Source: Eledone cirrhosa
Taxonomy: Eukaryota
Assembly: GCA_964016885.1 (NCBI GenBank)
Contig: OZ024746.1
Coordinates: forward strand, 19,220,001-19,284,000
Direction: 5' to 3'
Length of the DNA stretch: 64,000 nt
The notes under the pieces are model-generated. The model was not told the DNA's origin, made no database searches, and worked only from the letters and a program-made list of their open reading frames with translations. A program made the position numbers and the translations under genes. Every line of letters begins with the position of its first letter. The stretch's first letter is position 1. Of the stretch, positions 8,273-64,000 are shown one piece after another.

Positions 8273-10830
8273 ACAAGAAACTGGAATATATACACAAGAA
8301 ACTGGAATATATACACAAGAAACTGGAATATATACACAAGAAACTGGAATATATACACAAGAAACTGGAATATATACACAAGAAACTGGAATATATACAC
8401 AAGAAACTGGAATATATACACAAGAAACTGGAATATATACACAAGAAACTGGAATATATACACAAGAAACTGGAATATATACACAAGAAACTGGAATATA
8501 TACACAAGAAACTGGAATATATACACAAGAAACTGGAATATATACACAAGAGGCTGGAATATATACACAAGAGGCTGGAATATATACACAAGAGGCTGGA
8601 ATACATACACAAGAGGCTGGAATACATACACAAGAGGCTGGAATATATACACAAGAGGCTGGAATACATACACAAGAGGTTGGAATACATACACAAGAGG
8701 TTGGAATACATACACAAGAGGTTGGAATACATACACAAGAGGTTGGAATATATACACAAGAGGTTGGAATATATACACAAGAGGTTGGAATATATACACA
8801 AGAGGTTGGAATACATACACAAGAGGTTGGAATACATACACAAGAGGTTGGAATACATACACAAGAGGTTGGAATACATACACAAGAGGTTGGAATATAT
8901 ACACAAGAGGTTGGAATATATACACAAGAGGTTGGAATATATACACAAGAGGTTGGAATACATACACAAGAGGTTGGAATACATACACAAGAGGCTGGAA
9001 TATATACACAAGAGGTTGGAATACATACACAAGAGGTTGGAATATATACACAAGAGGTTGGAATATATACACAAGAGGCTGGAATATATACACAAGAGGC
9101 TGGAATATATACACAAGAGGTTGGAATACATACACAAGAGGTTGGAATATATACACAAGAGGTTGGAATACATACACAAGAGGTTGGAATATATACACAA
9201 GAGGTTGGAATATATACACAAGAGGTTGGAATACATACACAAGAGGTTGGAATATATACACAAGAGGTTGGAATATATACACAAGAGGTTGGAATACATA
9301 CACAAGAGGTTGGAATACATACACAAGAGGTTGGAATATATACACAAGAGGTTGGAATATATACACAAGAGGTTGGAATACATACACAAGAGGTTGGAAT
9401 ACATACACAAGAGGCTGGAATATATACACAAGAGGCTGGAATATATACACAAGAGGCTGGAATATATACACAAGAGGCTGGAATACATACACAAGAGGCT
9501 GGAATACATACACAAGAGGCTGGAATACATACACAAGAAACTGGAATATATACACAAGAGGTTGGAATATATACACAAGAGGTTGGAATATATACACAAG
9601 AGGTTGGAATATATACACAAGAGGTTGGAATATATACACAAGAGGCTGGAATATATACACAAGAGGCTGGAATATATACACAAGAGGCTGGAATATATAC
9701 ACAAGAGGTTGGAATATATACACAAGAGGTTGGAATATATACACAAGAGGCTGGAATATATACACAAGAGGTTGGAATATATACACAAGAAACTGGAATA
9801 TATACACAAGAAACTGGAATATATACACAAGAGGTTGGAATATATACACAAGAGGTTGGAATATATACACAAGAGGTTGGAATATATACACAAGAGGTTG
9901 GAATATATACACAAGAGGTTGGAATATATACACAAGAGGTTGGAATATATACACAAGAGGTTGGAATATATACACAAGAGGTTGGAATATATACACAAGA
10001 GGTTGGAATATATACACAAGAGGTTGGAATATATACACAAGAGGTTGGAATATATACACAAGAGGTTGGAATATATACACAAGAGGTTGGAATATATACA
10101 CAAGAGGTTGGAATATATACACAAGAGGTTGGAATATATACACAAGAGGTTGGAATATATACACAAGAGGCTGGAATATATACACAAGAGGCTGGAATAT
10201 ATACACAAGAGGTTGGAATATATACACAAGAGTTTGGAATATATACACAAGAGGCTGGAATATATACACAAGAGGCTGGAATATATACACAAGAGGCTGG
10301 AATATATACACAAGAGGTTGGAATATATACACAAGAGGTTGGAATATATACACAAGAGGTTGGAATATATACACAAGAGGTTGGAATATATACACAAGAG
10401 GTTGGAATATATACACAAGAGGTTGGAATATATACACAAGAGGCTGGAGTATATACACAAGAGGCTGGAGTATATATACACAAGAGGCTGGAGTATATAT
10501 ACACAAGAGGCTGGAATATATACACAAGAGGCTGGAGTATATATACACAAGAGGCTGGAGTATATATACACAAGAGGCTGGAGTATATATACACAAGAGG
10601 CTGGAGTATATATACACAAGAGGCTGGAGTATATATACACAAGAGGCTGGAGTATATATACACAAGAGGCTGGAATATATACACAAGAGGCTGGAATATA
10701 TACACAAGAGGCTGGAATATATACACAAGAGGCTGGAATATATACACAAGAGGCTGGAATATATACACAAGAGGTTGGAATATATACACAAGAGGTTGGA
10801 ATATATACACAAGAGGCTGGAATATATATA
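8273..10830. repeat. 21-bp minisatellite, about 120 units
   Basis: Unit acaagaggYtggaataYatac, with an aaactgg variant at the left end and a 23-bp variant (ggagtatatatac) at about 10460-10660. Confidence 0.97.
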
Positions 10831-10964
10831 CCACAAAACATTTCATTCTATACTTTAACACTTCTGTCTATTTGCCACACACTTGGAGGTTAGAGGCTGG
10901 GGTTCAATACTAACTGGTCTGTGACAATATGTCTAACTCTTGCAACAGGGAAAACTGACATTAA

Positions 10965-11206
10965 ATGATGATGATGGTGACGGTGGTGATGGTGGTGATG
11001 GTAATGAGGGTGATGATGATGACGAAGTTGCGGGTGGTGGTGGTGGTGGTGGTGGTGGTGGTGGTGGTGATGATGGTGGTGATGATGGTGGTGGTGATGG
11101 TGGTGGTGGTGATGATGGTGGTGGTGATGATGGTGGTGGTGGTGATGGTAGTGGTGGTGATGGTAGTGATGGTAGTGATGGTAGTGATGGTAGTGATGGT
11201 AGTGAT
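10965..11206 (+). repeat. (GAT/GGT)n trinucleotide microsatellite expanded from a retroposon tail
   Basis: Directly follows the RTE/SINE-type 3' end gcaacagggaaaactgacattaaatgatgatg. Confidence 0.9.
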
Positions 11207-14200
11207 TTATCCCTAATTTACAGTTAGAATAGAAAGAGACAAGTAAGGTAATGTCATGCAATATACTTTCAGTACATGGCCGCAACTGAAACTGAATTAG
11301 AACAAGGTTTCTTAGATAGCAATATACCTTCACACCACAACCAGCATCCCTTTCCATTAATGGATTAATTTTAATGCTTATCTCCTGGTAAAAGAATGAA
11401 AGTTTACTGTTTTCAACTATTAGCACACTTACCAACTTTTCCAAATTCACCTCAGTTTTAAAATCATCTGCCATCTTATCTATCTATTCCTGAATGCTGT
11501 CCTTGTGGGAGACATAAACTCTTGATAGTTTCCTTGTTTTGCTTTCACCACATTTTACACAAGAATCTCAGTGCCACATATGATCATCTCCTCCACTGTA
11601 ATATATATAGTGTTTCTGCATTTCTAAATTTGTTAGCTTAGAATCCAACCATTGAGCTTTGTGTTTCAATCTCCAGAATTCCCCCAAAGTTGTACCTACA
11701 TGTACACTTTGAATGTTATATAGATGGTTCTGCAATTACTGTGGCTTCATCTTCTCAATTGACAAAATCTTTCCACACAGCCCACATGGTAGTTGTGCAT
11801 ACACTCTTTTCATTGAAAAGTGACTGAAACAATATTGTAAATATGTTTCAACATACATCAGCCTTGCTAGCAGGGAAAGTAGATGTTAAATGATGGTGAG
11901 GATGATACATCTGTTAAATAATGTATACTTCATTTTCTAAGACATTAAAACATTATGCAATCATAAACGTAGATCTATAGATCTGTTGCAGTAACATTGA
12001 AGAAATCATCATCATCATTTAACATCCATCTTCCACGGTAGCATGGGTTAGACGGGAGTTGTCCCACTTGAGGCAAGGTTGGTCGGGTGACCGTGTCTCA
12101 CTCATATAGGACTATCTGGCAGGTTTTCTACAGCTGGATGCCCTTCCTAACACCAACCACATTTACAGTGTGGAACTGGGAACTTTTTACCGTGTTACCT
12201 ACACGGCCACATTACAGCGTGGGCTGTGTGTTTTTTTTGTTGTGACACCTACACAATCTTGATCTCATTATCTCATTTATTTGGACTGGATGTTATGGTA
12301 CCAACTTTACAGAGAGAGGGTGGTGTTAGTGGGAGGATAGGGTTGGGGTGTATATTTGGTTAAGAGGTGCCTACTGACTGTAGGTTTCGCTTTGTACGTT
12401 AGGCAAATTTCAACATAAAGAACACATCAATCTAAGATAAACTAACCTGGGTTGAGCTGAGCTAAGCCATCTTCCCATGTTACACTTAAGCTCTCATTTT
12501 AAGCACAAGTACGATTTTAAAAATATATTAGTGTCTGCTACACACTTCTACTTATGGTTTTGTGCTTTCTTTGTGGTTTTTATTTTTAAAGTGCAGAACA
12601 AAACACAAAAACAACAAAGACTGAAGAACTGTTCTGGATTTTAGATTTTCATTTCTTTGATGCACTTGAGACCTGTTCCCTTTCAATGAAGTATGAGATT
12701 CACCTTATGTCGAAAGGAAGTGGACTGAGACCATAGGGTCCTCTTGCTGCACCACTGATATCCTACCCAAATACAATTTTTTGCCCCAGTCGAGGTTGCA
12801 GTAATGTATAATGTATATTGTGAACATTTGGTGTAGTTTTATTTTGTTTACACATAGTCGACAACTGCAGTAAACAATGTCTGGTAACCAGAAGATTGGA
12901 TCAGCTGAAAGTTGTAACATGAAATCAATCATGATTTAGCTAAAAAAATACTCCAAGTAAGCCAAGTTCAAATGAGTTCACTAGGAAAAAAAATGTTAAA
13001 AGAGCTAATTTCACTATAGAAATCGCAGTCCCTTGATTTTTCTGTAGGACTTGCTGAGTTTATTCAGAGTTTTTCTTATATCCTTATTCTATATGTATTA
13101 AATTTGTTCCTGACTGTTGCTGTGACATTGAACAACAATTTACAAACTTCCTTATTTCTTATGTGAATTAGCGGTAGATTGGCAGTATCGGTAGAACATC
13201 GGACATGTTTTGCTACATATAGTTACATCCCGAGTTCAAACCTCGTCAAGGTTAGCTTTGCTTTCATCCTTACAGGGTCAATCAAATAAAGTACCAGTAA
13301 TGCACTGGAGTTGATTTAATCGAAACCCCCCCATCCCCACCCCCCAAAAAAATTGTTGGCCTTGTGCCATTATTTTGTATTACATATTAACAAAGTGGGG
13401 TCGATTTAATCAACTTTCTCTTCCCCACAAATTATTGGACCTTGTGCCTAAATCAGAAACCATTATTTGGTATAGCCAAATAATGCCAAGACATAAAAAA
13501 AAAACTCAAAGTTCTCTTAAAATTTTCATAATTCTTTCATTCATGCAAACAAATATTCACATATTACATTGAAATAGATTTGCAAAGCTGAAATATAATG
13601 GAGAGATTTGAAACGCATGTCATTGTTCAGTAACATCTGTATTTATTTTCACCATATATTTTTCATCAATAATTACTGAGAGGTGGAGGAGTAGGGGGGT
13701 ATTTTTCTTTTTGCTACTATCCCAGGATACCACCAGCTTTACTTCTCTCTACTTTAAATGTCTAGAACAAACATACATTGTTCTGCCATTTTGTTTCAAG
13801 ATACAATATAAATGAAAAGCTATGTGGGAAGTTCTAAATGGGTGGAACACTTTCATTCCTTCACTAATTGCCTCCAGTATAGAAAACAAAAGTGCTTTAT
13901 CTGTTTGAATATATAAATCTAACATTTGTTGCCAGGATACATTTCTACTGACATATTCAAACAGGTCTTCATGGACAATAAAGAAGAAAATCAATCTCCA
14001 TTTAAAACAGTGTGATATAAGCAAGGTGTTAATATATGTAGGATAGGAAAATCAAATCAACATTTATTAGAAAGGAAATTGGTATTTAGAATTAAAGGAT
14101 CTTGTATTTAAATTATTCAATGTCATTAAATGAGTAAATTACTTTAATCTCCAATTACTTTCAGATTACGACATCGATGAGAGAACTTTTAAAATTTATA

Positions 14201-18138: not shown

Positions 18139-18776
18139 ATGAAACTTAAGGGTCAATGCACTTCGTGGACCCAGCCAACAGGTTGGCGAGGGAGACATGA
18201 AACTTAAGGGTCAATGCACTTCGTGGACCCAGCCAACAGGTTGGCGAGGGAGACATGAAACTTAAGGGTCAATGCACTTCGTGGACCCAGCCAACAGGTT
18301 GGCGAGGGAGACATGAAACTTAAGGGTCAATGCACTTCGTGGACCCAGCCAACAGGTTGGCGAGGGAGACATGAAACTTAAGGGTCAATGCACTTCGTGG
18401 ACCCAGCCAACAGGTTGGCGAGGGAGACATGAAACTTAAGGGTCAATGCACTTCGTGGACCCAGCCAACAGGTTGGCGAGGGAGACATGAAACTTAAGGG
18501 TCAATGCACTTCGTGGACCCAGCCAACAGGTTGGCGAGGGAGACATGAAACTTAAGGGTCAATGCACTTCGTGGACCCAGCCAACAGGTTGGCGAGGGAG
18601 ACATGAAACTTAAGGGTCAATGCACTTCGTGGACCCAGCCAACAGGTTGGCGAGGGAGACATGAAACTTAAGGGTCAATGCACTTCGTGGACCCAGCCAA
18701 CAGGTTGGCGAGGGAGACATGAAACTTAAGGGTCAATGCACTTCGTGGACCCAGCCAACAGGTTGGCGAGGGAGAC
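18139..18776. repeat. 11 identical copies of a 58-bp unit
   Basis: atgaaacttaagggtcaatgcacttcgtggacccagccaacaggttggcgagggagac x11, with no spacers and no variants seen. Confidence 0.97.
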
Positions 18777-20025
18777 ACGCTGCTACTCCAGCTTGCAGGG
18801 CTCACAAAGATTAGATTAGGATGAGCTAGGTTCTTAACATTTTGACATCAGGGTTGCCAGATTTACAAAGGTTGGCTGAAAGGTTCATTGGCTGACTATG
18901 GAGGAGTAATGCTAGAGCTGTGAAATCTTGCATGCATTCATTTCAACTCTTAATAAGGGCGGTGGATTGGCAGTATCGGTAGAGGGTCAGACACCATGCT
19001 TTCCAGCATAGTTACGTCCCTTTACGATCTGAGTTCAAATCCCGCCGAGGTTGACTTTGCCTTTCATCCTTACGGGGTCGATAAAATAAAGTACCTGTAA
19101 TGCACTGGGTAATTGATGGCCTTGTGCCAAAAGTAGAAACAATTTCAACTCTTAATAATTGCATTGTCTCTTTCCAGGGATAATGTTGAAATATAAACCT
19201 CAATTGGTCATTCCATGAGAGTATCTTGATCAGCCTATGAACTTTTCAGCTTTCTGGTTACTAGTAGTGGATTACACTACTTTTTTTTTTATTTGGGCTA
19301 CTTGCTACTTTTATTTTATTAAAATATTTATATTAATGGTATTTAGGGCAATCAGTAAAAATTATAGGCAAATTAAGACGGTAAGATATTAATTAAGATA
19401 TTTGGCAGCTATTTGTATCAAGTCATACGACACAGCAATTATTCAATCACGTGGACAATCTTTGAAATATACGCTACGTTTCACAACGTGAATGCTTTTT
19501 CTATTTATGACGTGTTAAGTGGATTGAAAAAAAAAAATATTTGCTGTTCCCAAAAGAGAGGTTCACTATAATCTTTTAGATAAACTAACCATACAATTTT
19601 ATATTGCCTTTGTTTACATGACTTTTTCTTTGTTTGTTTTTATGTTCAATATATGAAGCTTGAAATAAATTTAGACGTTGAATCATAGTATTTCTCACGT
19701 GAAAAAATTATTTTGGATATGAGTATTTTTTTTTGGCTAATAAAATTTCATTAAAACAAATTTCCTAAGGACAAGGAAACACTACAAAAAATAGTGTCTA
19801 GAAGTTTTGAGACAGACATGCAAAGAATTATTGAACCATATGCCTAGAAATATTAAAATCCTTCAAATTCCCTAGAAAATATTTTTTAGGCCATACTCAT
19901 TCATCTTTTGGTTGATCACTCTAAAATTGGAGAAAGAGAACCAGTTGTGTAAACTACTAACACTCAATTGGAAAAGTATATTTTCTGAGGAAATTTTCAT
20001 TGACAAGTCAGAATTCTGGTATAGT

Positions 20026-40652: not shown

Positions 40653-40683
40653 ATGGAATCTGAAATTTCACTTGAAACATTAG
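40653..40683 (+). CDS. MEI4: MEI4 homologue, probable coding exon 1 (MESEISLETL-)
   Basis: Polypyrimidine plus AG acceptor at 40638-40639, ATG at 40653, donor G|gtatgt. Phase 1 matches the next exon. The acceptor implies an upstream non-coding exon. Confidence 0.6.
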
Positions 40684-45706: not shown

Positions 45707-45931
45707 AACAACAATACATCCTTAAAATTAAAATAGCCGTTGCTTTTGTTATATTGAGAAACAAGCCTAAAGCGATTCCAACTATCCAATATGTTGATGA
45801 TCTTATGTCTACCTACCAAAGACAGGTTTTGGATTCATCAGATAATTCTCCTAGTATTGATCGGGACCATTTAATCAACTGCCAGCAAAAATTAATTAAT
45901 GAACTGGAATTGACTAATTTAATATTTCAGG
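45707..45931 (+). CDS. MEI4: MEI4 homologue, coding exon 2 (conserved N-terminal motifs)
   Basis: ttcttcttctcaag| ... G|gtaag. YILKIKIAVAFVILRNKPKAIPTIQYVDDL resembles the vertebrate MEI4 N-terminus WYLRTSKLALALAIIRSKPADKSSREYTEHL (recalled). Confidence 0.85.
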
Positions 45932-47626: not shown

Positions 47627-48180
47627 TTACACAAATAGAAGTGTGTTACACAGTGAAATGTGTGTAAAGGATTATTAAAAGTGATTTTTACTGTTACTGT
47701 ATAGAAAACAATATCTACAGGTTTACCAATTAAATAGAAAAAAACCTAAGTCAGAATCAAATCACTGAAGTAGGGTTTTAAATTACTAATCTTATAACTA
47801 TAAGTTTGCTGATACGAATTAAGTTCGTTTCGCCACAGAAATGTGCAGTTTAACAGCCACTACTGATTTCGCCCTACCCTGGGTTATATTAGCTTTCTCT
47901 CGATCCATGAGGTTAGATGTGTAGTAAACAGAATCCACATTTGCTGACTGATGGACCTGTGGCTGTTAAACTGCACATTTCTGTGACAAAACGAACTTAA
48001 TGTGTATCAGCAAACTTATAGTTATAAGATTAGTAATTTAAAACTCTACTTCAGTGATTTGATTCTGACTTAGGTTTTTTTTCTATTTAATTGCTAAACC
48101 TGTAGATATTGTTTTCTATACAGTAACGGTAATAATCCTTTACACACATTTCACTGTGTAACACACTTCTATTTGTGTAA
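47627..48180. repeat. Long inverted repeat, arms about 230 bp, in MEI4 intron 2
   Basis: 47627-47860 pairs with 47959-48180. An extra partial arm copy lies at about 46855-46930. Confidence 0.92.
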
Positions 48181-48356: not shown

Positions 48357-48751
48357 ATGCAGATTCTAACAATATCTTAACACCTCCTCTCTCTGGAAAA
48401 TGTATCACTTCTAACTCTATTTCATTAGATCGTATGTTAACAAAACATACCACTTTCCTGCAAAGTTCATTTAAATTAAGAAGTGTTTCGAATCTGATCA
48501 AAGAACAGCTTCAAATAGATAAAGTCATTGAACAAACAGTTATTGATAGTATCCAAATAGTTTATAATTTTCTCTCAACTGATATACATAAAATCACATC
48601 ACCTTGTGTTAGTTCAACAATAAAAGCAACAATGAAAATCTGTGACTTGGTACCTCAGAATTCAAATCTTCAGAAGATTTTAAAAACTTTCACTGCAGAT
48701 TTCCAGAATACTGTCATCAAGAAAGTATTATTTAATGATAATGTAACACAG
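48357..48751 (+). CDS. MEI4: MEI4 homologue, coding exon 3
   Basis: tttcag| ... CAG|gtagtt, phase 1 in and phase 0 out. LTKHTTFLQSSFKLRSV resembles MEI4 LSSHMQFLQYLLELKNL. Confidence 0.82.
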
Positions 48752-52185: not shown

Positions 52186-52581
52186 ATTACAAAAAATGAA
52201 CTTGTCAAGCTGTTGTGCCAATTTATGCATTGCTATGAAACAAGAGATTTACTTCTAAATACTTTATATAACTATGCAGTGAAATTCTTCAAGTATATCA
52301 AAAGAATTTCTATGCAGATACAAAAGCTTCATGATCCATCTTTCTTTGAAAATAATTACTATATTCTTTCTTGCCTAACAGAATGTATTACTGAGAGCAT
52401 TGACAACCATGATTTGATGCCACCTCAAAACTATATTATTGATTTAACTACTGCTATAGAGAACTGTTTTCCTATAATAGAGGACACTTTTCCATTGATC
52501 TCTCATGCCTTGTGGCAAATGATGATTGTCATTAATAACGTTTCCCAGAACAGGAATGTTACCAATTCAAATTTCATTTGA
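52186..52581 (+). CDS. MEI4: MEI4 homologue, terminal coding exon
   Basis: ttttgtag|ATT, phase 0. FENNYYILSCLTECI and EDTFPLISHALWQM resemble the MEI4 C-terminal YENIFSLFWVLEQLL and SDAFPLFTFYLWRV. Spliced CDS is 31+225+395+396=1047 nt, or 348 aa. Confidence 0.87.
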   Translation: MTKNELVKLLCQFMHCYETRDLLLNTLYNYAVKFFKYIKRISMQIQKLHDPSFFENNYYILSCLTECITESIDNHDLMPPQNYIIDLTTAIENCFPIIEDTFPLISHALWQMMIVINNVSQNRNVTNSNFI

Positions 52582-55500
52582 AAGAATATTTGACCAACAA
52601 GCTGCGACTGCCAATGTATCTCTCACCTATCCTAATTTGAAAGAATATTTGACCAACAAGCTGCGACTGTCAATGTATCTGTCACCTATCCTAATTTGAA
52701 AGAATATTTGACCAACAAGCTGCGACTGCCAATGTATCTGTCACCTATCCTAATTTGAAAGAATATTTGACCAACAAGCTGCGACTGTCAATGTATCTGT
52801 CACCTATCCTAATTTGAAAGAATATTTGACCAACAAGCTGCGACTGTCAATGTATCTGTCACCTATCCTAATTTGAAAGAATATTTGACCAACAAGCTGC
52901 GACTGTCAATGTATCTGTCACCTATCCTAATTTGAAAGAATATTTGACCAACAAGCTGCGACTGTCAATGTATCTGTCACCTATCCTAATTTGAAAGAAT
53001 ATTTGACCAACAAGCTGCGACTGTCAATGTATCTGTCACCTATCCTAATTTGAAAGAATATTTGACCAACAAGCTGCGACTGTCAATGTATCTGTCACCT
53101 ATCCTAATTTGAAAGAATATTTGACCAACAAGCTGTTACTGTCAATGTATCTCTCACCTATCCTAATTTGAAAGAATATTTGACCAACAAGCTGCGACTG
53201 TCAATGTATCTGTCACCTATCCTAATTTGAAAGAATATTTGACCAACAAGCTGTTACTGTCAATGTATCTCTCACCTATCCTAATTTGAAAGAATATTTG
53301 ACCAACAAGCTGTTACTGTCAATGTATCTCTCACCTATCCTAATTTGAAAGAATATTTGACCAACAAGCTGCGACTGTCAATGTATCTGTCACCTATCCT
53401 AATTTGAAAGAATATTTGACCAACAAGCTGTTACTGTCAATGTATCTGTCACCTATCCTAATTTGAAAGAATATTTGACCAACAAGCTGCGACTGTCAAT
53501 GTATCTGTCACCTATCCTAATTTGAAAGAATATTTGACCAACAAGCTGCGACTGTCAATGTATCTGTCACCTATCCTAATTTGAAAGAATATTTGACCAA
53601 CAAGCTGCGACTGTCAATGTATCTGTCACCTATCCTAATTTGAAAGAATATTTGACCAACAAGCTGCGACTGTCAATGTATCTCTCACCTATCCTAATTT
53701 GAAAGAATATTTGACCAACAAGCTGTTACTGTCAATGTATCTCTCACCTATCCTAATTTGAAAGAATATTTGACCAACAAGCTGCGACTGTCAATGTATC
53801 TGTCACCTATCCTAATTTGAAAGAATATTTGACCAACAAGCTGTTACTGTCAATGTATCTCTCACCTATCCTAATTTGAAAGAATATTTGACCAACAAGC
53901 TGTTACTGTCAATGTATCTCTCACCTATCCTAATTTGAAAGAATATTTGACCAACAAGCTGCGACTGTCAATGTATCTGTCACCTATCCTAATTTGAAAG
54001 AATATTTGACCAACAAGCTGCGACTGTCAATGTATCTGTCACCTATCCTAATTTGAAAGAATATTTGACCAACAAGCTGCGACTGTCAATGTATCTCTCA
54101 CCTATCCTAATTTGAAAGAATATTTGACCAACAAGCTGCGACTGTCAATGTATCTGTCACCTATCCTAATTTGAAAGAATATTTGACCAACAAGCTGCGA
54201 CTGTCAATGTATCTGTCACCTATCCTAATTTGAAAGAATATTTGACCAACAAGCTGCGACTGTCAATGTATCTGTCACCTATCCTAATTTGAAAGAATAT
54301 TTGACCAACAAGCTGCGACTGTCAATGTATCTGTCACCTATCCTAATTTGAAAGAATATTTGACCAACAAGCTGCGACTGTCAATGTATCTGTCACCTAT
54401 CCTAATTTGAAAGAATATTTGACCAACAAGCTGCGACTGTCAATGTATCTGTCACCTATCCTAATTTGAAAGAATATTTGACCAACAAGCTGCGACTGTC
54501 AATGTATCTGTCACCTATCCTAATTTGAAAGAATATTTGACCAACAAGCTGCGACTGTCAATGTATCTCTCACCTATCCTAATTTGAAAGAATATTTGAC
54601 CAACAAGCTGCGACTGTCAATGTATCTGTCACCTATCCTAATTTGAAAGAATATTTGACCAACAAGCTGCGACTGTCAATGTATCTGTCACCTATCCTAA
54701 TTTGAAAGAATATTTGACCAACAAGCTGCGACTGTCAATGTATCTCTCACCTATCCTAATTTGAAAGAATATTTGACCAACAAGCTGCGACTGTCAATGT
54801 ATCTCTCACCTATCCTAATTTGAAAGAATATTTGACCAACAAGCTGCGACTGTCAATGTATCTGTCACCTATCCTAATTTGAAAGAATATTTGACCAACA
54901 AGCTGCGACTGTCAATGTATCTCTCACCTATCCTAATTTGAAAGAATATTTGACCAACAAGCTGCGACTGCCAATGTATCTCTCACCTATCCTAATTTGA
55001 AAGAATATTTGACCAACAAGCTGCGACTGTCAATGTATCTCTCACCTATCCTAATTTGAAAGAATATTTGACCAACAAGCTGTTACTGTCAATGTATCTG
55101 TCACCTATCCTAATTTGAAAGAATATTTGACCAACAAGCTGCGACTGTCAATGTATCTCTCACCTATCCTAATTTGAAAGAATATTTGACCAACAAGCTG
55201 CGACTGTCAATGTATCTGTCACCTATCCTAATTTGAAAGAATATTTGACCAACAAGCTGCGACTGTCAATGTATCTCTCACCTATCCTAATTTGAAAGAA
55301 TATTTGACCAACAAGCTGCGACTGTCAATGTATCTGTCACCTATCCTAATTTGAAAGAATATTTGACCAACAAGCTGCGACTGTCAATGTATCTGTCACC
55401 TATCCTAATTTGAAAGAATATTTGACCAACAAGCTGCGACTGTCAATGTATCTCTCACCTATCCTAATTTGAAAGAATATTTGACCAACAAGCTGTTACT

Positions 55501-57290
55501 GTCAATGTATCTCTCACCTATCCTAATTTGAAAGAATATTTGACCAACAAGCTGCGACTGTCAATGTATCTGTCACCTATCCTAATTTGAAAGAATATTT
55601 GACCAACAAGCTGCGACTGTCAATGTATCTGTCACCTATCCTAATTTGAAAGAATATTTGACCAACAAGCTGCGACTGTCAATGTATCTCTCACCTATCC
55701 TAATTTGAAAGAATATTTGACCAACAAGCTGCGACTGTCAATGTATCTGTCACCTATCCTAATTTGAAAGAATATTTGACCAACAAGCTGCGACTGTCAA
55801 TGTATCTGTCACCTATCCTAATTTGAAAGAATATTTGACCAACAAGCTGTTACTGTCAATGTATCTCTCACCTATCCTAATTTGAAAGAATATTTGACCA
55901 ACAAGCTGCGACTGTCAATGTATCTGTCACCTATCCTAATTTGAAAGAATATTTGACCAACAAGCTGTTACTGTCAATGTATCTCTCACCTATCCTAATT
56001 TGAAAGAATATTTGACCAACAAGCTGCGACTGTCAATGTATCTGTCACCTATCCTAATTTGAAAGAATATTTGACCAACAAGCTGCGACTGTCAATGTAT
56101 CTCTCACCTATCCTAATTTGAAAGAATATTTGACCAACAAGCTGCGACTGTCAATGTATCTCTCACCTATCCTAATTTGAAAGAATATTTGACCAACAAG
56201 CTGCGACTGTCAATGTATCTGTCACCTATCCTAATTTGAAAGAATATTTGACCAACAAGCTGCGACTGTCAATGTATCTGTCACCTATCCTAATTTGAAA
56301 GAATATTTGACCAACAAGCTGCGACTGTCAATGTATCTGTCACCTATCCTAATTTGAAAGAATATTTGACCAACAAGCTGTGACTGTCAATGTATCTCTC
56401 ACCTATCCTAATTTGAAAGAATATTTGACCAACAAGCTGCGACTGTCAATGTATCTCTCACCTATCCTAATTTGAAAGAATATTTGACCAACAAGCTGCG
56501 ACTGTCAATGTATCTCTCACCTATCCTAATTTGAAAGAATATTTGACCAACAAGCTGCGACTGTCAATGTATCTGTCACCTATCCTAATTTGAAAGAATA
56601 TTTGACCAACAAGCTGCGACTGTCAATGTATCTCTCACCTATCCTAATTTGAAAGAATATTTGACCAACAAGCTGCGACTGTCAATGTATCTGTCACCTA
56701 TCCTAATTTGAAAGAATATTTGACCAACAAGCTGTTACTGTCAATGTATCTGTCACCTATCCTAATTTGAAAGAATATTTGACCAACAAGCTGCGACTGT
56801 CAATGTATCTGTCACCTATCCTAATTTGAAAGAATATTTGACCAACAAGCTGCGACTGTCAATGTATCTGTCACCTATCCTAATTTGAAAGAATATTTGA
56901 CCAACAAGCTGTTACTGTCAATGTATCTGTCACCTATCCTAATTTGAAAGAATATTTGACCAACAAGCTGCGACTGTCAATGTATCTCTCACCTATCCTA
57001 ATTTGAAAGAATATTTGACCAACAAGCTGTTACTGTCAATGTGTCTCTCACCTATCCTAATTTGAAAGAATATTTGACCAACAAGCTGTTACTGTCAATC
57101 TGTCCCTCACCTATCCTAATTTGAAAGAATATTTGACCAACAAGCTGTTACTGTCAATGTGTCTCTCACCTATCCTAATTTGAAAGAATATTTGACCAAC
57201 AAGCTGCGACTGTCAATGCGTCTCTCACCTATCCTAATTTGAAAGAATATTTGACCAACTACTGTCAATTTATCTGTCACTTATCCTTAT
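52577..57290. repeat. 59-bp satellite: 79 full units plus one degenerate unit, starting on the MEI4 stop codon
   Basis: tttgaaagaatatttgaccaacaagctg(cg/tt)actgtcaatgtatct(g/c)tcacctatcctaa; period 59 from 52577 to 57238. Confidence 0.97.
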
Positions 57291-58654
57291 GGATGACATT
57301 ATGATTAATGAGAATGGGATATATAAGCTGGTAATTTTCTTTTTTTTATGGAAGTATTTAATATTGGTTATGATGTTTTTGAATTTGGGACTTGGTGGCA
57401 TGCACCATGCTGCATGTCCAATCTACAGTAGGTGACTGTACAACAGAGTAGGCTCTCCATCTCAAGTGAAGTTGGCTCTGTGGCCCCTCCTTTTAACAAT
57501 ATCTTCACCTACCCATTTAATATTTTTTCTAATTTTTTTGTTGCCCCTACAAAGAAGGGCAAAACTGTCTGAAAAGGTCTTCTGTGTGTTGCTGGAGACA
57601 GCTTCGAACCCACTCCACATCGTTATTGTCATTGTTTTTACTGTTATTCATGTTGCCATTTGTATTGTTTTTGTATTGTGTAGCTGTTATTTTTGTTTGT
57701 TTCTGTGTCATGTTTGTAATTGTAGCGGTGGTGTTTGTACTCGTGTTTTATTGGTTTTATTATTTATAATTATTTCTGGTGATTGTGTTGTCAGTTTCGA
57801 GTATTCCATTTCATATTGTTTTGTGCTATGTTGTTGCTGTCGGCGACAGGAAATTTAGAATATAAAGTTCAAATATTTGGGCCAAAAGCCCAAATATTAT
57901 GATATCTCACTTCTTGAGGGCAAAGGATGATATCTTATGTCCACTTTGAAACAAAAATTATAACAAAACAAACGTTTTAAACAGGTAAAAACTAACAAAC
58001 GTATGAGGGCAAATTACATCACATGTCAATAAAAGAACAAACAAAATAATAAATAAATTAATTAAAAGAAAAATGTAAATCAAACATTATCATTAGTAGC
58101 TGAATGATAATGATAATAATATTTATTTAAAAAAATATTACAAAGAAAATTTGACAAAAATAAAGTTTTATTAATTTTTTTATTTAAAATGGTTTTGTTT
58201 ATCTGTTAATTTCTATGAATAGTTTCTTATACAGAAATAATGTGAAGAAACTCAATTTGTTGAATGTATTTCATGAGATTACACCCAATGTAGATTAGGT
58301 TCTGTATTTACAGACAGAAGCTGCACAAAGGGAATGTATCATTATTACCCTTTTTTATTCTTGTAAAAAAAATTTATAAAAACTTAATTGCATTGACGTA
58401 AATTAATAATTCTTCTGATAAGAAGGCTGTGCTGAATTCAAAACATTTTCAAGACATGTTGTATGTCAGGATGGTATCCCTATGACTTCATCAGGGTTTA
58501 AGGGTCTGTGAACATAGATTTTCTGGGTATCAGAGATGAGCCTGGTCTGGTAGCACAGCTGATGAGATGTTGGGTTATCTGGCAAAGAATTTAAGTGAAA
58601 TGAGTCAGGGGGAACAGTTGATGCCATAGTTGAATTCAGCATATCACAAAGGCA

Positions 58655-58794
58655 TTAGTGAGGTTTCTTTCCTTCCACGATATCATAAATTGCATTAAGG
58701 CTTTGTTCAATTGCTGTGATCAAATCAGCTCCATTTCTGTGGGGACTGTAAGAAGTGATGATATAACCAGTAGCTTTGTCTCCAATTTGGTAAC
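58655..58794 (-). CDS. CPT2: Carnitine palmitoyltransferase 2, terminal exon
   Basis: aaag|GT TAC...: GYQIGDKATGYIITSYSPHRNGADLITAIEQSLNAIYDIVEGKKPH*. Matches the CPT2 C-terminus (GY.V.D..IG..VSSY..RN...F...VEK.L.D..D.LEGK). Confidence 0.9.
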
Positions 58795-59509
58795 CTTTTC
58801 AAACAAAAGGAGAATGAGATAAAGTATTACATCAAGGAAGTATGTTTAAAAAGTGGCAAATGGAGATTGAAAATAGAAGACTTTGCTCTAAATTTTTGAC
58901 TAAATAAAAAGTCAGGGTATATAGACCCACTGGACAGAAAAGATGGGCATCAGCATATGGGGGTTGAACTCATACCTCCTATTTACTGGACAAGTACACT
59001 ACCATTATGTCAATGAACACACACATTTGTCAAACCCATGCTAGTGTGGGAAAAAAATGGACGTTAAACAGTGATGATGATATATATATATATGCAAGGT
59101 AGGGTGGTGGATTGGTAGAGCATCAGACAATACACCACCTGGTCCGGGAATTGAACTCACAACCTCACGATTGCAAGCCCAACTCTCTAACTACTAAGAC
59201 ATGTGCCAAGTACAGAGGAAAGTAAGCTTGAACATGTCAATGAAGTATTAGATAATGAATCAAGCAGTGGAGTTAAATGATAAAAGACATGCTATGCTAA
59301 ACAAATGAAATGTTGCATATTTCATATCAACTATTAAAAACAAAGTCTAACATTACTTCCTAGTGTTTACATTAGCTAACAACAGGTTTCTTTTTTCTTT
59401 TTCTTGCAGTAGAGAAGATAATATTTCAGTGAAACCTTACTTCACTTTATGGTGAAATAAATAAAAACATTAATACAAGTAGTGCTAGAATCAACTAGAG
59501 ATTACGTAC

Positions 59510-59701
59510 CAATTCCAAAACCATTAGGTACTACAGGTCCAAAGCCACCAAACTGTGTGACTGCACTGCTTAGTGTAGATGTTGAAAGGATAATGTTGTT
59601 AATAAGTTTATAATTTGGATCTGTGAACAGAGCTGGCATTTTATTTTTGCTCTTTTCAGCAAGAATCCTCATTCCAAATAGATGTCTATCAAATGCTTGT
59701 C
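59510..59701 (-). CDS. CPT2: CPT2 exon
   Basis: GQAFDRHLFGMR...LFTDPNY..INNIILSTSTLSS....GGFGPVVPNGFGI, which includes the carnitine acyltransferase DRHL and STS motifs. Canonical AG/GT, phase 1/1. Confidence 0.95.
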
Positions 59702-61383
59702 CTGTAATGAAATAAGTAAAAACATTTTAACACAGCCTGTTTAATTCTATAATTGGTTTAAAAGTTCTTGTATTTGTTGGGAGATATGTGTTAGAATTTA
59801 TGGAAGGTTTAGAAGAAATTTAATCTTTGGTTTACCTTTTTAGCATTTACATTACCACAAAATACAATAGTATATATAGAGTAAAGGCTTTATCTCACAT
59901 AATATCGAATATATGAGATTTTGATATTTATTTTGGAAACAATTCCTTATCAGTATGAGTAGCAAGTTACAGTCAGTTTGAATAGAAAAAGGTGAGAGAA
60001 TTCTGGCCGGATACAGCCGGTTTAAATGCTAAAGGGTTAAAGTCACAGATTAGGTATTAGGCTAGAAGTTAAATATGTTTAGAGTAAGACCACAGTTTCT
60101 CTATTTATCACGAAAATCTAATATGTATTTATTTATTTAATCAATTAAAACATCTATATAGAGCTAGAAAGCCATAACAGACTAGAGGAAGGATCTAGTA
60201 CTTCTTACAGTTGAGAAACAAAAAGTAAGACAGAGATAAGTGAATATAAACATTAAAATAAAAAAATAAAAATTAAATTAAATAGGGAAGGTCAACTGGA
60301 GATAAAATAAGCATAAAAAAATAGGAAACAAGGTAAGGTGTAAAACAGCTTGAAGGTTCTGTTGTTGAATCTTTTCATAACCTCCATGTACTCAAAGATT
60401 TTGTTTATAGTTGGTAGATCTTTGACAATATATTGTATCTCCAATGATTGACTTCAAGATGGCATCTCTCTCTCTAAACAACTAAATAACTGGTGTTAAT
60501 CAAAACTAGAAATCTACAGTGTATACACTTACATGAACACTGCAAAAATACTTCTTTCTTGCAGTGTTACATACAGGCAATGAGATATGATTGGATACTA
60601 TTGTTCAAATTGGTTATCTCTATGACACAAAGAACATTAACTAATGTTTTATTAAATACTGGCTACTATACACTTTAATAAAAACAATTCATTTTAATAA
60701 ACCTGTGCCATACTCTAGGTGAGGAGTTGGCAGTGTCATTTGAGCATTGTATAAGATTCCCTGATGTATTTAATACAGATCTTTGTGTTCTGAGTTCAAA
60801 TCCCACTAAGGCCTGCTTGGCTGATGAGATGAAAATAATTTTTAAGACTTGACTTTTTACATTGATATACTTGTTAAACAGTATAAAATCTACAACACTT
60901 TCCATATTTTTTCAAATACTTTGTTGGAAATTATAGTTAAACTAGTTGAAAAATATAAGGAAAGAAGTATAAAAAAAATTGAGACAAATCTTTATTTTTC
61001 TAATGTTTAGTCATGGAGGGACATAACGCTTTTTTGACGCCTTTGAGATGGGTGAAAGGTACCCTTAAGTTAGAAACCAGCTCTAAATGATTCCAATAGG
61101 GTGAATTCCATTGAAGGCCACTAAGGGCTAGATCATGATGTTAAATTAAGCAACAAATTAAGTTTACCACTAAAGTAAGCCTTAGTGGGATTTGAACTCA
61201 GAACACCTAGTGAATCTTGTGCAATAATTTAATAACTCTGCCAGCTACCCACCTAGTAGTATGGCACAGGTTTATTAAAGTGCATTGTTTCAAAGAGATG
61301 GGGATATCTAGAGAAAGTGACCTGGGGAGTAGTTTTAGTCCTACAAACTTCAAAGAAAATTAAAAAAATGTTTACTTCCTTAC

Positions 61384-61615
61384 CCATTGCTGCTGATTTT
61401 GTAAGATTCATATGGACTTTACTGCATTCTTCAAGAATAGCTTGCATTTCTGCAAGGGTGGAAGTAGATTTAGATCCAAAAATAATTTCACAAGCTTTCT
61501 TTGTGGCTAATGTATTTGGTCTTATAGTCTCTGTGCGGCCATGTTTAAAAGCTGCAGTGCTACATGACTCATAACTTGCAGCAAATTCTCCAGAAGTCAT
61601 TTTGTAGAAACCCAT
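61384..61615 (-). CDS. CPT2: CPT2 exon
   Basis: YESCSTAAFKHGRTETIRP...ECSK.H..LTK.AAMG, a CPT2-diagnostic motif. AG/GT boundaries. Confidence 0.96.
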
Positions 61616-62146
61616 CTTTAATAGAAGAAAAAAAAAAATAAGACAAGTTAAATATATATACTATATCTTTAATTGTAGGCAGCAAATTGGCAGAGTCATT
61701 AGAACATCTTTAATTATAGGTGGCTAATTGGCAGTTTGTTAATCTTTCTCGCTTTTATTTTGTAAGTGCTATTAAACATCTTTATTTTCAAACAGTAAAA
61801 AGTAACATTTTGAAATACATTCTAACCTGATGAATAAATATTCTTACCTTGAAAATCAAGATGAAGCATGAGTTTATTTGAAATTCAATAGAAATAATTT
61901 GAAAACTTAAATGCATGAATAACTGTTAAAACAACCAAATGCCATTAATGACAGCATGTAAGTCTGGTAAAAAATATCTCGAGAAGTACGGCTATTCTTG
62001 TGTCCAAGAGATATTTTTAGCCAACTTACATGTTGTCATTAACGGTATTTGGCTGTTTTAACGGTTATTCTTGCATAAAAGTTTTCAAATTATTTCTATG
62101 AATTCTTACTTGAGAATAAAGTAGTATAGTTCTCAATCATTCTTAC

Positions 62147-62316
62147 CTGAATTGCTAACTGCATTACTGAATCAGGACTAAGGTTCTTTGCCTTTATAAA
62201 ATTTTTGTTAAACTTTTTATAGTCAATAAAATTCTTCTGCAAACGTCCAGTGGCTTCACTGAATCTCTCTTTGGCATCTGTAATACTTGCTTTAAGTTTG
62301 GCATCTAATTGGAAAT
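62147..62316 (-). CDS. CPT2: CPT2 exon; upstream exons probably lie beyond the window
   Basis: FQLDAKLKASITDAKERF...KNFIKAKNLSPDSVMQLAIQ|gtaaga. Confidence 0.93.
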
Positions 62317-64000
62317 CTAAGCAATGAAATAAAAAAACAACGGCCATTATTTTGTTTTAATATATTTATAAGAAATAAAAAGACATTTTTTATAAAAGTA
62401 TCACCATTATACATTGAACATTTCATTTCCTTTGTTTTGATGTTTTGATTATTAATGAAATGAGGACACTTCACTGACTAGGAAGATAACAGTTAACTCT
62501 GAATATAAACTCTACATGAACATGTTGGGCAGTCTCCTGATGGATACTCCAGCATACATGGAAGTTATGGATATGGTATGAGGAGGGATCAAGTGAAAAT
62601 TGGGCTTCTATTTCTAGCAGATCTATCAAACATGCTGAAGCTTCATCTTTGGTGCATCATGAAGGTAGTCATCATCATCATTATTATTTAACATCCATTT
62701 TCCATGCTTGCATGGGTTAGATGGGTCCTTCTCAGTACAGCATCTCTCCACTTGTAGCATTCCTTTGTCATCTCCTCCATGAGCTTTAGCAATCAGAGAT
62801 CAGTTCTCACCACTTCCATCCAGGTCCTCCTTGGCCTTCTACTGCAGTTTCCTTCCACTGGGATTATTTAGCACTTCTTCACCCAGCAATCATCATTTAT
62901 GCACATCTCATGTCCATACCAACAGTATCCTCTCTTGCACACTACTTCTGATTCCTCTTAAACCCAGTTTCTCCCTCAGTTCATCCAAGCTCTGCCTTTC
63001 TCACATTAACATTAACATTGCAAATCCATCGAAGCATGCGAGCCTCATGTCTCTCCAGCCTTGGCATTCACAGGATTAAACTTTGTCTCAAGATGGAGTT
63101 TCATTGTAGCAGTGCTTATCCCAGTTTCCATGGTGTTAAGCAACTGAGAGCACAAGGCTTTCCCCTGGACAGGACACCAGTCCATCACAGGGTTAAACCT
63201 TCAGTTACTGCTAGTATTTATTTTCAGCTAAGTATACTGGGGTAACGTGAAATGAAGTGTTTTGCTCAACAATATGACACAAAACCCAGTTGAGGAATCA
63301 AACCCACGATATTATGATCATAAGTCCAACACCCTAACCACTAGGCCACATGCCTTTACTTTTCCTTAATAGCTTTATTTAAAATTTTCTGTAGCCAGTT
63401 TTTGCATATCTATTAACAACCTGTGATACTTGTTTATCCAGCTGTATTGTATCACAAGCCTACACCCTTTCCTACATGTAATACTACTACCACTAATTTT
63501 TTTTATTGAGAAATATTTTAAAAATGTCTTACAACCCACACCCATAAACTACTCATGCAGAAAATAAAAGTATTAACAATGAATATTAGAACTCCTACAT
63601 GATTGGAACACACTTCTAATCTATACATACCCAACAATATATGAATGAGCAGTAACAGCAATAGTTTAGAACATTAGTACGAAACCTTCCTAAATGTCAT
63701 TGCCTATTTCAGATAAACATAAAACAAATTTGTACCAAAATATATCAACTATGAGGTGACAAATTGGCAGAGTTATTAGAACGTCAGATAGAATGCTTTG
63801 TGATATTTATCATATTCATTCTGACTCTCTGCTCTCTGAGTTTAAATCCAGAAGAGTTCAATTTTGCCTTTCATTCTTTTGAGATCAATAAAAAAAAGTA
63901 CCAGTCTAGTACTGGGGTCTATTCTTCCTCTATATCTCTTTCCCACTTCCATTCTCTCACTTTCTCTCCTTCTCTGGAAGAAACTAGCTGTATTCAGACC

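What the first reader, a model, noticed from the sequence alone, without database searches (positions are those of the whole stretch)
52577..57290. 4.7-kb, about 80 x 59-bp satellite that begins on the stop codon of the meiotic DSB gene MEI4
Seen: the MEI4 TGA (52579-52581) lies in the first bases of unit 1, so the array is a tandem amplification of the stop codon plus the proximal 3'UTR. The unit has no AATAAA or ATTAAA, and the first AATAAA I see downstream is at 58028. Established: MEI4 acts with REC114 and IHO1 to enable SPO11 breaks. Inference: the mRNA may carry a >5-kb repetitive 3'UTR with about 80 copies of any RBP, miRNA or piRNA site. Copy number could then tune MEI4 dosage, and recombination would in turn resize the array.
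Basis: partly seen in the sequence, partly recalled or inferred. Interest (0 to 1): 0.75.

Follow-up and report, generated by a model that had tools for sequence, protein, structure and literature searches.

The report
Minisatellite born from octopod MEI4 stop
In an octopus relative, the 59 letters around the stop codon of the meiosis gene MEI4 are copied 79 times head to tail, at this one place only; the protein is predicted to stay whole, and because kilobase repeats of this kind are common in this genome the array is likely a tolerated by-product that would lengthen the message's tail, not a dial for recombination.

Summary
There are 79 exact-period 59-bp units plus one decayed copy at 52576-57290, at a single locus. 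Raw-read depth is about 68 times that of the flank, so this is not an assembly artefact.

The gene is MEI4, with four coding exons and 348 aa predicted. Octopus orthologues end I-L-K-H-I*, and this window reads I*-K-N-I*. Each unit therefore carries the stop now reached first and the Octopus-type stop, which shows the unit was copied from the gene's own end. The Mei4 domain is complete. RAD reads suggest other animals also carry a multi-copy array.

Against a special function: a 950-kb sample held 4 similar arrays of 2 kb or more, so about 6 (2-16) are expected over some stop codon by chance. The scan noted a parallel case at CEP70 in this genome (unchecked). No RNA run was listed, so the 5.5-kb 3'UTR and the dosage feedback are untested.

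Best reading: an ordinary, locally born minisatellite of the 'mirage' kind, likely near-neutral.

The parts
40653..40683 (+). MEI4 coding exon 1 (predicted): ATG, 10 codons plus 1 nt, GT donor
   Evidence: 9 of 10 residues identical to the O. vulgaris N-terminus; BLOSUM score 42 against 22 for the next best ATG candidate in 14000-45640
45707..45931 (+). MEI4 coding exon 2 (predicted); holds the N-terminal helix that binds REC114 in mouse
   Evidence: Pfam Mei4 E 0.009, under the cut-off on its own; 62% identity to P0001; polypyrimidine-AG acceptor and GTAAG donor
48357..48751 (+). MEI4 coding exon 3 (predicted)
   Evidence: 69% identity to P0001, collinear; AG/GT ends in phase
52186..52581 (+). 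MEI4 terminal coding exon, ending in TGA 52579-52581
   Evidence: 60% identity over 132 aa to P0001 residues 221-352; 1 match in the genome
52576..57236 (+). 79 full 59-bp units; four main variants at two sites (CG/TT and G/C) interspersed; unit 1 holds the last codon and the stop
   Evidence: single locus; raw-read depth
52591..52593 (+). Second in-frame TGA, at the position of the Octopus MEI4 stop (window I*KNI*, Octopus ILKHI*); repeated in every unit
57237..57290 (+). Decayed terminal copy (7-bp deletion, 3 substitutions) joined to the unique 3' flank
   Evidence: unitig 57230-57620 in X2 with no differences
58028..58215 (+). Predicted polyadenylation region: AATAAA at 58028, 58048, 58052 and 58159, the last followed by a U-rich tract; minus-strand AATAAA at 58122, 58167 and 58179 could serve the convergent gene
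   Evidence: sequence scan only; no RNA
58655..62356 (-). Last exons of a convergent CPT2-like carnitine acyltransferase gene; predicted stop near 58655
   Evidence: Pfam Carn_acyltransf; best PDB match CPT2, E 2.5e-17; the last exon 58658-58798 has no Pfam hit and was assigned by frame and position

Best explanation
This is a single-locus minisatellite copied from MEI4's own last codons, stop and first 3'UTR bases, and it is likely a near-neutral by-product of a genome that often amplifies short local sequence in tandem. Shown: the unit matches the orthologous C-terminal codons, the array occurs only here, and the predicted reading frame is whole. Inferred history: a nonsense change created a stop four codons before the Octopus-type stop; a 59-bp segment spanning both was duplicated by slippage or unequal exchange; it then grew and was homogenised by exchange between units. 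Because unit 1 keeps the exon end intact, the protein is unaffected and the extra copies fall into non-coding sequence. Inferred consequence: most transcripts would read through to the poly(A) signals near 58030-58180, giving a 3'UTR of about 5.5 kb instead of 0.8-0.95 kb (about 60% likely). Otherwise they would be cut at weak sites in the early units. Either way MEI4 output is predicted to stay sufficient rather than to be tuned.
For: Local origin: Octopus MEI4 ends N-L-I-L-K-[H/R]-I* in 3 of 3 proteins; the window has N-F-I*-K-N-I* in frame. Single locus. Protein whole: the tail after the last FPL-like motif is 30 residues here, 35 in Octopus, and 16-26 in the 12 of 14 distant homologues that have the motif; 13 of those 14 pass the Pfam Mei4 cut-off. 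Turnover: all four combinations of the two main variants occur (42, 20, 12, 4; plus 1 TG unit); private variants lie mostly at the ends (units 1, 3, 76-79 and the decayed copy, but also 41 and 65); no higher-order period (P 0.83 against shuffles). Base rate: in 950 kb from 17 blocks outside the window, 13 arrays of 500 bp or more, 4 of 2 kb or more and 3 of 4 kb or more (period 20-200, identity at least 85%). With an assumed 25,000 genes, 6.2 (1.7-15.8) arrays of 2 kb or more are expected over a stop codon. The window holds 5 other minisatellites. Of 3 other arrays tested, 1 was single-locus and 2 had only diverged (71-89%) relatives elsewhere. In amphioxus, mirage arrays over exon boundaries reportedly do not disturb splicing and show the same homogenised interior with excluded ends (PMC3087553, passages).
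Against: Neutrality is inferred from a base rate, not measured. The arrays were clustered (4 of 17 blocks), so the Poisson intervals are too narrow; the blocks were chosen by hand and the gene number is assumed. The null ignores selection against 3'UTR expansion, which would lower the expectation. In mouse male germ cells long-3'UTR transcripts are removed by UPF2-dependent decay (PMC4858225, abstract), so an effect on mRNA level is plausible. The array seems shared by other animals, which fits drift but also retention. No clear 5-10 bp direct repeat flanks the unit, so the birth mechanism is not pinned down. The direction of the stop change (gain here or loss in Octopus) was not settled, because no closer outgroup was identified among the homologues found.
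Confidence: 0.72

Rival explanations
1. Accidental but effective regulator: the array is transcribed, and its length changes MEI4 mRNA stability or translation (long-3'UTR decay or repeated binding sites), so copy number acts as an expression variant for break formation.
For: No canonical poly(A) signal between the stop and 58028. Long-3'UTR decay in mouse male germ cells (PMC4858225, abstract). A 40-bp 3'UTR VNTR may affect SLC6A3 expression (PMC8502797, search listing).
Against: No RNA data. Length variation was not measured. No full Pumilio, CPE, ARE or UAG motif recurs in the unit (motifs recalled). Folding is weak, about -0.17 kcal/mol per nt, with no shuffle control run. The passage read names SPO11, not MEI4, as dosage-limiting (PMC10425845); one search listed no paper whose title or abstract opening concerns MEI4 haploinsufficiency.
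Confidence: 0.13
2. The array is mostly outside the mRNA: transcripts are cleaved at weak non-canonical sites in the first units, so the array acts as a spacer or spread-out terminator between MEI4 and the convergent CPT2-like gene.
For: Each unit has AACAAG (79 of 79; recalled as a weak poly(A) variant) and most have UGUA (75 matches). Male germ cells favour short 3'UTRs (PMC4858225, abstract). A 3% cleavage chance per unit would leave about 9% of transcripts after 79 units (arithmetic).
Against: These signals are weak, and a strong AATAAA with a U-rich tract exists at 58159. The scan's CEP70 note reports a spliced message reading into a similar array (unchecked). This reading is compatible with the best explanation and differs only in where the mRNA ends.
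Confidence: 0.1
3. Selected feedback device: MEI4-dependent breaks resize the array, and array length sets MEI4 dose.
For: The array sits in an essential break-formation gene; unit variants have been reshuffled; the scan noted another array at the meiotic gene SHOC1 (unchecked).
Against: No evidence that the locus is a break hotspot. Reshuffling is generic to tandem arrays. The scan notes similar arrays at non-meiotic genes (CEP70, UBE3C, RB1, SLC22; unchecked). My searches for SHOC1 and REC114 by Pfam family found nothing, so enrichment could not be tested.
Confidence: 0.03
4. Assembly artefact: a short duplication inflated by the assembler.
For: High unit identity (mean pairwise difference 2.4%); no long read spanning the array was seen.
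Against: Short-read depth ratio of about 68; interspersed variants also seen in reads of other animals; both junctions present in unitigs.
Confidence: 0.02

Closest known systems
'Mirage' minisatellites of amphioxus (Adh3, globins BflGb6 and BflGb9; PMC3087553, passages read)
   Same: Tandem copies of a gene's own boundary signal; the real copy stays at the edge; interior homogenised and ends excluded; gene apparently still works.
   Different: Mirages span exon-intron boundaries, with 3-6 copies in BflGb6. Here the boundary is the stop codon and there are 79 copies plus a decayed one. Length instability and harmlessness to the mRNA were not shown here.
Single-locus minisatellites born by slippage or unequal exchange (Taylor and Breden 2000; Haber and Louis 1998; seen only as described in PMC3389668, passages)
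   Same: 10-100 bp unit, one locus, incomplete terminal unit, interspersed variants as in human MVR arrays (recalled).
   Different: No perfect 5-10 bp flanking direct repeat; AT-rich unit (37% GC); overlaps a coding end.
SLC6A3/DAT1 40-bp 3'UTR VNTR (PMC8502797, PMC4472402; search listing only)
   Same: Minisatellite downstream of a stop codon, proposed to affect expression.
   Different: 3-11 copies and shown to be polymorphic in a 3'UTR. Here there are 79 copies, the unit includes the stop codons, and neither transcription nor length polymorphism is shown.
Animal MEI4 (Pfam PF13971; PMC10425845 and PMC13425402, passages)
   Same: Collinear, single-copy orthologue; N-terminal helix and C-terminal FPL-type motif present.
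   Different: C-terminal tail is 5 residues shorter than in Octopus (4 from the earlier stop, 1 from a gap); function in cephalopods untested.

Membership tests
Single-locus minisatellite | Head-to-tail unit of about 10-100 bp, array 0.1-20 kb | tested here: met
   59 bp x 79.4, 4.7 kb
Single-locus minisatellite | Confined to one locus | tested here: met
   79 of 79 pattern matches and 37 of 37 DNA matches lie in this array
Single-locus minisatellite | Interspersed variant units, more diverged ends | tested here: met
VNTR | Copy number differs between alleles or individuals | tested here: inconclusive
   RAD reads imply 4 unit haplotypes among 7 reads in X4 and at least 3 among 14 in X5; X6 gave 2 among 3 (uninformative). 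This suggests multi-copy arrays but gives no lengths.
Amphioxus 'mirage' repeats | Unit spans an exon-intron boundary | tested here: not met
   The unit spans the stop codon of the terminal exon; no consensus GTAAG donor or polypyrimidine-AG acceptor in the array. It works like a mirage but is not a member in the strict sense.
Amphioxus 'mirage' repeats | Unit derived from the host gene's own sequence, gene left intact | tested here: met
3'UTR regulatory VNTR (SLC6A3 type) | Array lies within the mature mRNA | not testable with these tools
   No RNA holder listed
3'UTR regulatory VNTR (SLC6A3 type) | Length alters expression | not testable with these tools
   Needs genotyped gonad RNA
Satellite DNA family (multi-locus or heterochromatic) | Large blocks or several chromosomal sites | tested here: not met
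   One 4.7-kb locus
MEI4 | Pfam Mei4 domain over the curated cut-off | tested here: inconclusive
   The joined window protein was not scanned. Exon 2 alone scores 15.9 bits (cut-off 25); the collinear orthologue P0001 passes at 26.9 bits.
MEI4 | Orthology by profile search and single copy | tested here: met
   The profile retrieves 17 proteins; 13 of the 14 scanned are Mei4 over the cut-off; the O. vulgaris member is named MEI4-like; one genomic match

The most novel reading that the evidence does not exclude
MEI4 mRNA in this octopod carries a natural 79-fold stop-codon repeat as a 5.5-kb 3'UTR whose length varies between animals and sets mRNA level through long-3'UTR decay. That would make it a mutable, heritable modifier of meiotic break number, and one of a class of arrays born preferentially at germline-expressed genes (MEI4, with SHOC1 and CEP70 from unchecked scan notes).
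Probability: 0.06. Interest if true: 0.75.

Novelty: new member of a known kind. Interest (0 to 1): 0.27.

Why it matters
As it stands, this is a clean example of a minisatellite whose birth can be read from the orthologous protein. It shows that an essential meiotic gene tolerates 4.7 kb of repeat placed directly on its stop codon. With similar cases in this genome it offers natural test material for long-3'UTR decay and poly(A) site choice in a mollusc germline. It would matter much more only if length variation changed MEI4 level and crossover rate, because that would be a fast-mutating recombination modifier. Nothing here shows that.

Tried and rejected
1. RNA evidence: no RNA holder was listed. 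This says nothing about expression.

2. Coding array: 59 is not a multiple of 3, and all three plus-strand frames hit stops within the 177-bp cycle. A frame after the array that looks open (57238 onward) has no support from homologue C-termini. Rejected.

3. Different terminal exon: homologues end within this exon. Rejected at the protein level; non-coding 3' splicing remains untested.

4. Higher-order repeat structure and clustering of variants: not above shuffles (P 0.83 and 0.20).

5. Outgroup for the direction of the stop change: word-indexed searches gave only the Octopus cluster; the profile search gave distant unnamed homologues.

6. Checking SHOC1 and REC114 in this genome by Pfam family: nothing rang anywhere, uninformative. 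The CEP70 case could not be located.

7. Tandem joints in RAD reads: none listed. The reads on the unit end at its AATT site and look like off-target ligation products, so they are weak evidence; duplicates or index hopping are possible.

8. Literature: MEI4 + octopus gave 0 papers; the searches listed nothing on this locus or on cephalopod gene-end minisatellites. The library lacks most subscription journals, and no supplements were read.

9. Five requested stretches on C16 did not exist, so the sample is 17 blocks.
Full report
Observation. The array is as described. TRF finds 79.4 copies of a 59-bp unit at 52576-57259 with 97% matches and no indels. All 79 spacings are exactly 59 bp, and a decayed last copy with a 7-bp deletion extends to about 57290. 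It occurs once in the 3.0-Gb genome: 79 of 79 matches to a 21-nt unit motif with up to one mismatch lie in the array, as do all 37 DNA matches. The tool cautions that its DNA search skips very common words. In short-read unitigs of a DNA run the invariant part of the unit has depth 457 against 6.75 for the flank, a ratio of about 68. A second run gives 357 against 5.2-11. Depth is only a rough guide, and these runs may be the assembled animal, but an assembler-made expansion is very unlikely. Unitigs without differences reach 30 letters into the array from both flanks, one short of the tool's bridging rule; the left one covers both TGAs.

The gene. Four predicted coding exons (40653-40683, 45707-45931, 48357-48751, 52186-52581) have GT/AG ends in matching phases and would give 348 aa (the total is my arithmetic). 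Exons 2-4 are collinear with Octopus proteins at 62, 69 and 60% identity, and exon 1 matches 9 of 10 N-terminal residues. The O. bimaculoides protein passes the Pfam Mei4 cut-off and the O. vulgaris member is named MEI4-like. A profile search retrieves 17 proteins, and 13 of the 14 I scanned are Mei4. The terminal exon has one match in the genome. The animal is therefore an octopod, not very close to Octopus. MEI4 binds REC114 through its N-terminus in mouse (PMC10425845, passages) and is needed for break formation in mouse and zebrafish (PMC13425402, passages).

Where the unit came from. All three Octopus proteins end I-L-K-[H/R]-I-stop. The window reads I-stop-K-N-I-stop in the same frame. 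Bases 1-18 of every unit are thus the orthologous last codons, holding the stop now reached first (52579) and a second TGA at the Octopus position (52591). The other 41 bases are the start of the old 3'UTR. This shows at the protein level that the unit was copied from the gene's own end; I had no DNA of relatives. The simplest history is a nonsense change followed by duplication, but the direction is not fixed without an outgroup. The shortening looks harmless: 30 residues follow the last FPL-like motif here, against 35 in Octopus and 16-26 in 12 of 14 distant homologues (2 lacked the motif).

Turnover. Units differ by 2.4% on average. Two main variable sites occur in all four combinations (42, 20, 12 and 4 of 79, plus one intermediate). 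This points to exchange between units or to recurrent mutation. Rare variants gather mostly at the ends, and there is no higher-order period. RAD reads of three other samples with the same species label fall on the unit (7, 14 and 3 reads), while exon 4 next to it had none. They imply four unit haplotypes in X4 and at least three in X5, more than a single-copy diploid locus allows; X6 is uninformative. These are few, off-target, possibly duplicated reads, so they only suggest that the array is shared. They give no lengths.

The 3' end. The array has no AATAAA or ATTAAA. The first AATAAA is at 58028, and the best-looking site, with a U-rich tract behind it, is at 58159. Use of these would give a 3'UTR of 5.5-5.6 kb, against 0.8-0.95 kb without the 79 units. 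A CPT2-like gene converges from the right and is predicted to stop near 58655. Its possible signals overlap the same region, so the array fills most of a 6-kb gap between two gene ends. Each unit also has AACAAG and usually UGUA, which I recall as weak cleavage elements, so early cleavage is possible. No RNA run was listed, and the mRNA end is unknown.

Is the position surprising? I sampled 950 kb in 17 blocks outside the window: two 100-kb blocks beside it and 15 arbitrary 50-kb blocks. They held 13 arrays of 500 bp or more, 4 of 2 kb or more and 3 of 4 kb or more (period 20-200, identity at least 85%), in 4 of the 17 blocks. The 15 arbitrary blocks alone gave 9, 3 and 2. Scaled up with an assumed 25,000 genes, about 6 (1.7-15.8) arrays of 2 kb or more should have a founding unit over some stop codon. 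The clustering makes these intervals too narrow, and selection is ignored. The window has five other minisatellites. A 4.1-kb, 63-bp array about 140 kb upstream of this array is also single-locus; two others have only diverged relatives elsewhere. One such gene is therefore expected, and that it is MEI4 is a choice made after the fact. The scan's own unchecked notes report the same anatomy at CEP70 and boundary arrays at UBE3C, SHOC1, RB1 and an SLC22 gene. My attempt to locate SHOC1 failed.

Mechanism and verdict. The most likely reading (0.72) is a locally born minisatellite that survives because its first copy leaves the gene whole, and that likely lengthens the 3'UTR as a by-product. An unselected effect on mRNA level is possible (0.13), since mouse male germ cells degrade long-3'UTR transcripts (PMC4858225, abstract). 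Early cleavage within the array gets 0.10, a selected feedback loop 0.03 and an artefact 0.02.

Comparison with known kinds. It works like the amphioxus mirage repeats (PMC3087553, passages) but spans a stop codon rather than a splice site, so it is not a mirage in the strict sense. It meets the tests for a single-locus minisatellite (birth models seen through PMC3389668, passages). It cannot yet be called a regulatory 3'UTR VNTR like that of SLC6A3 (search listing). I found no paper on octopus MEI4 or on this arrangement in cephalopods, within a library that lacks most subscription journals. Novelty: new member of a known kind. Interest 0.27.

Noticed in passing
window 58028-58215 and 58655-62356 (-): A CPT2-like gene converges on MEI4. 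Predicted poly(A) signals of both strands overlap in about 190 bp, so overlapping 3' ends (sense-antisense RNA) are possible.
   Followed up: partly
window 52576-52593: Two in-frame TGAs four codons apart. A-to-I editing of the first (UGA read as Trp) or read-through would restore an Octopus-length tail. Pure speculation, no RNA.
   Followed up: no
window 18139-18777: 58-bp x 11 array at 100% identity, so probably very young; single 83-89% copies of the unit lie on four other contigs.
   Followed up: partly
window 8282-10828: 21-bp x 120 array that is stop-free in three plus-strand and two minus-strand frames (about 870-890 codons). Probably a trivial result of unit composition.
   Followed up: no
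window 47627-48180: Inverted repeat with arms of about 230 bp (exact blocks of 51, 33, 36, 41 and 27 bp) in MEI4 intron 2, MITE-like; it could form a pre-mRNA hairpin.
   Followed up: partly
L021:5144-9258 (G000:C6 near 19.125-19.129 Mb): 63-bp x 66 single-locus array with a diverged older end.
   Followed up: partly
L051-L055 (C5) and L081-L085 (C14): Two of 15 arbitrary 50-kb blocks were entirely tandem repeat (19-bp and 84-bp units).
   Followed up: no
run X4/X5 reads on window 57179-57238: The TT-G unit variant, rare in the assembly (4 of 79), made up 3 of 7 reads in X4 and at least 2 in X5. Variant make-up may differ between animals, but counts are tiny.
   Followed up: no
window 10893-11483 (-) and 13752-14051 (-): Exon-like open frames of an unidentified minus-strand gene; no Pfam hit for the second.
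   Followed up: no
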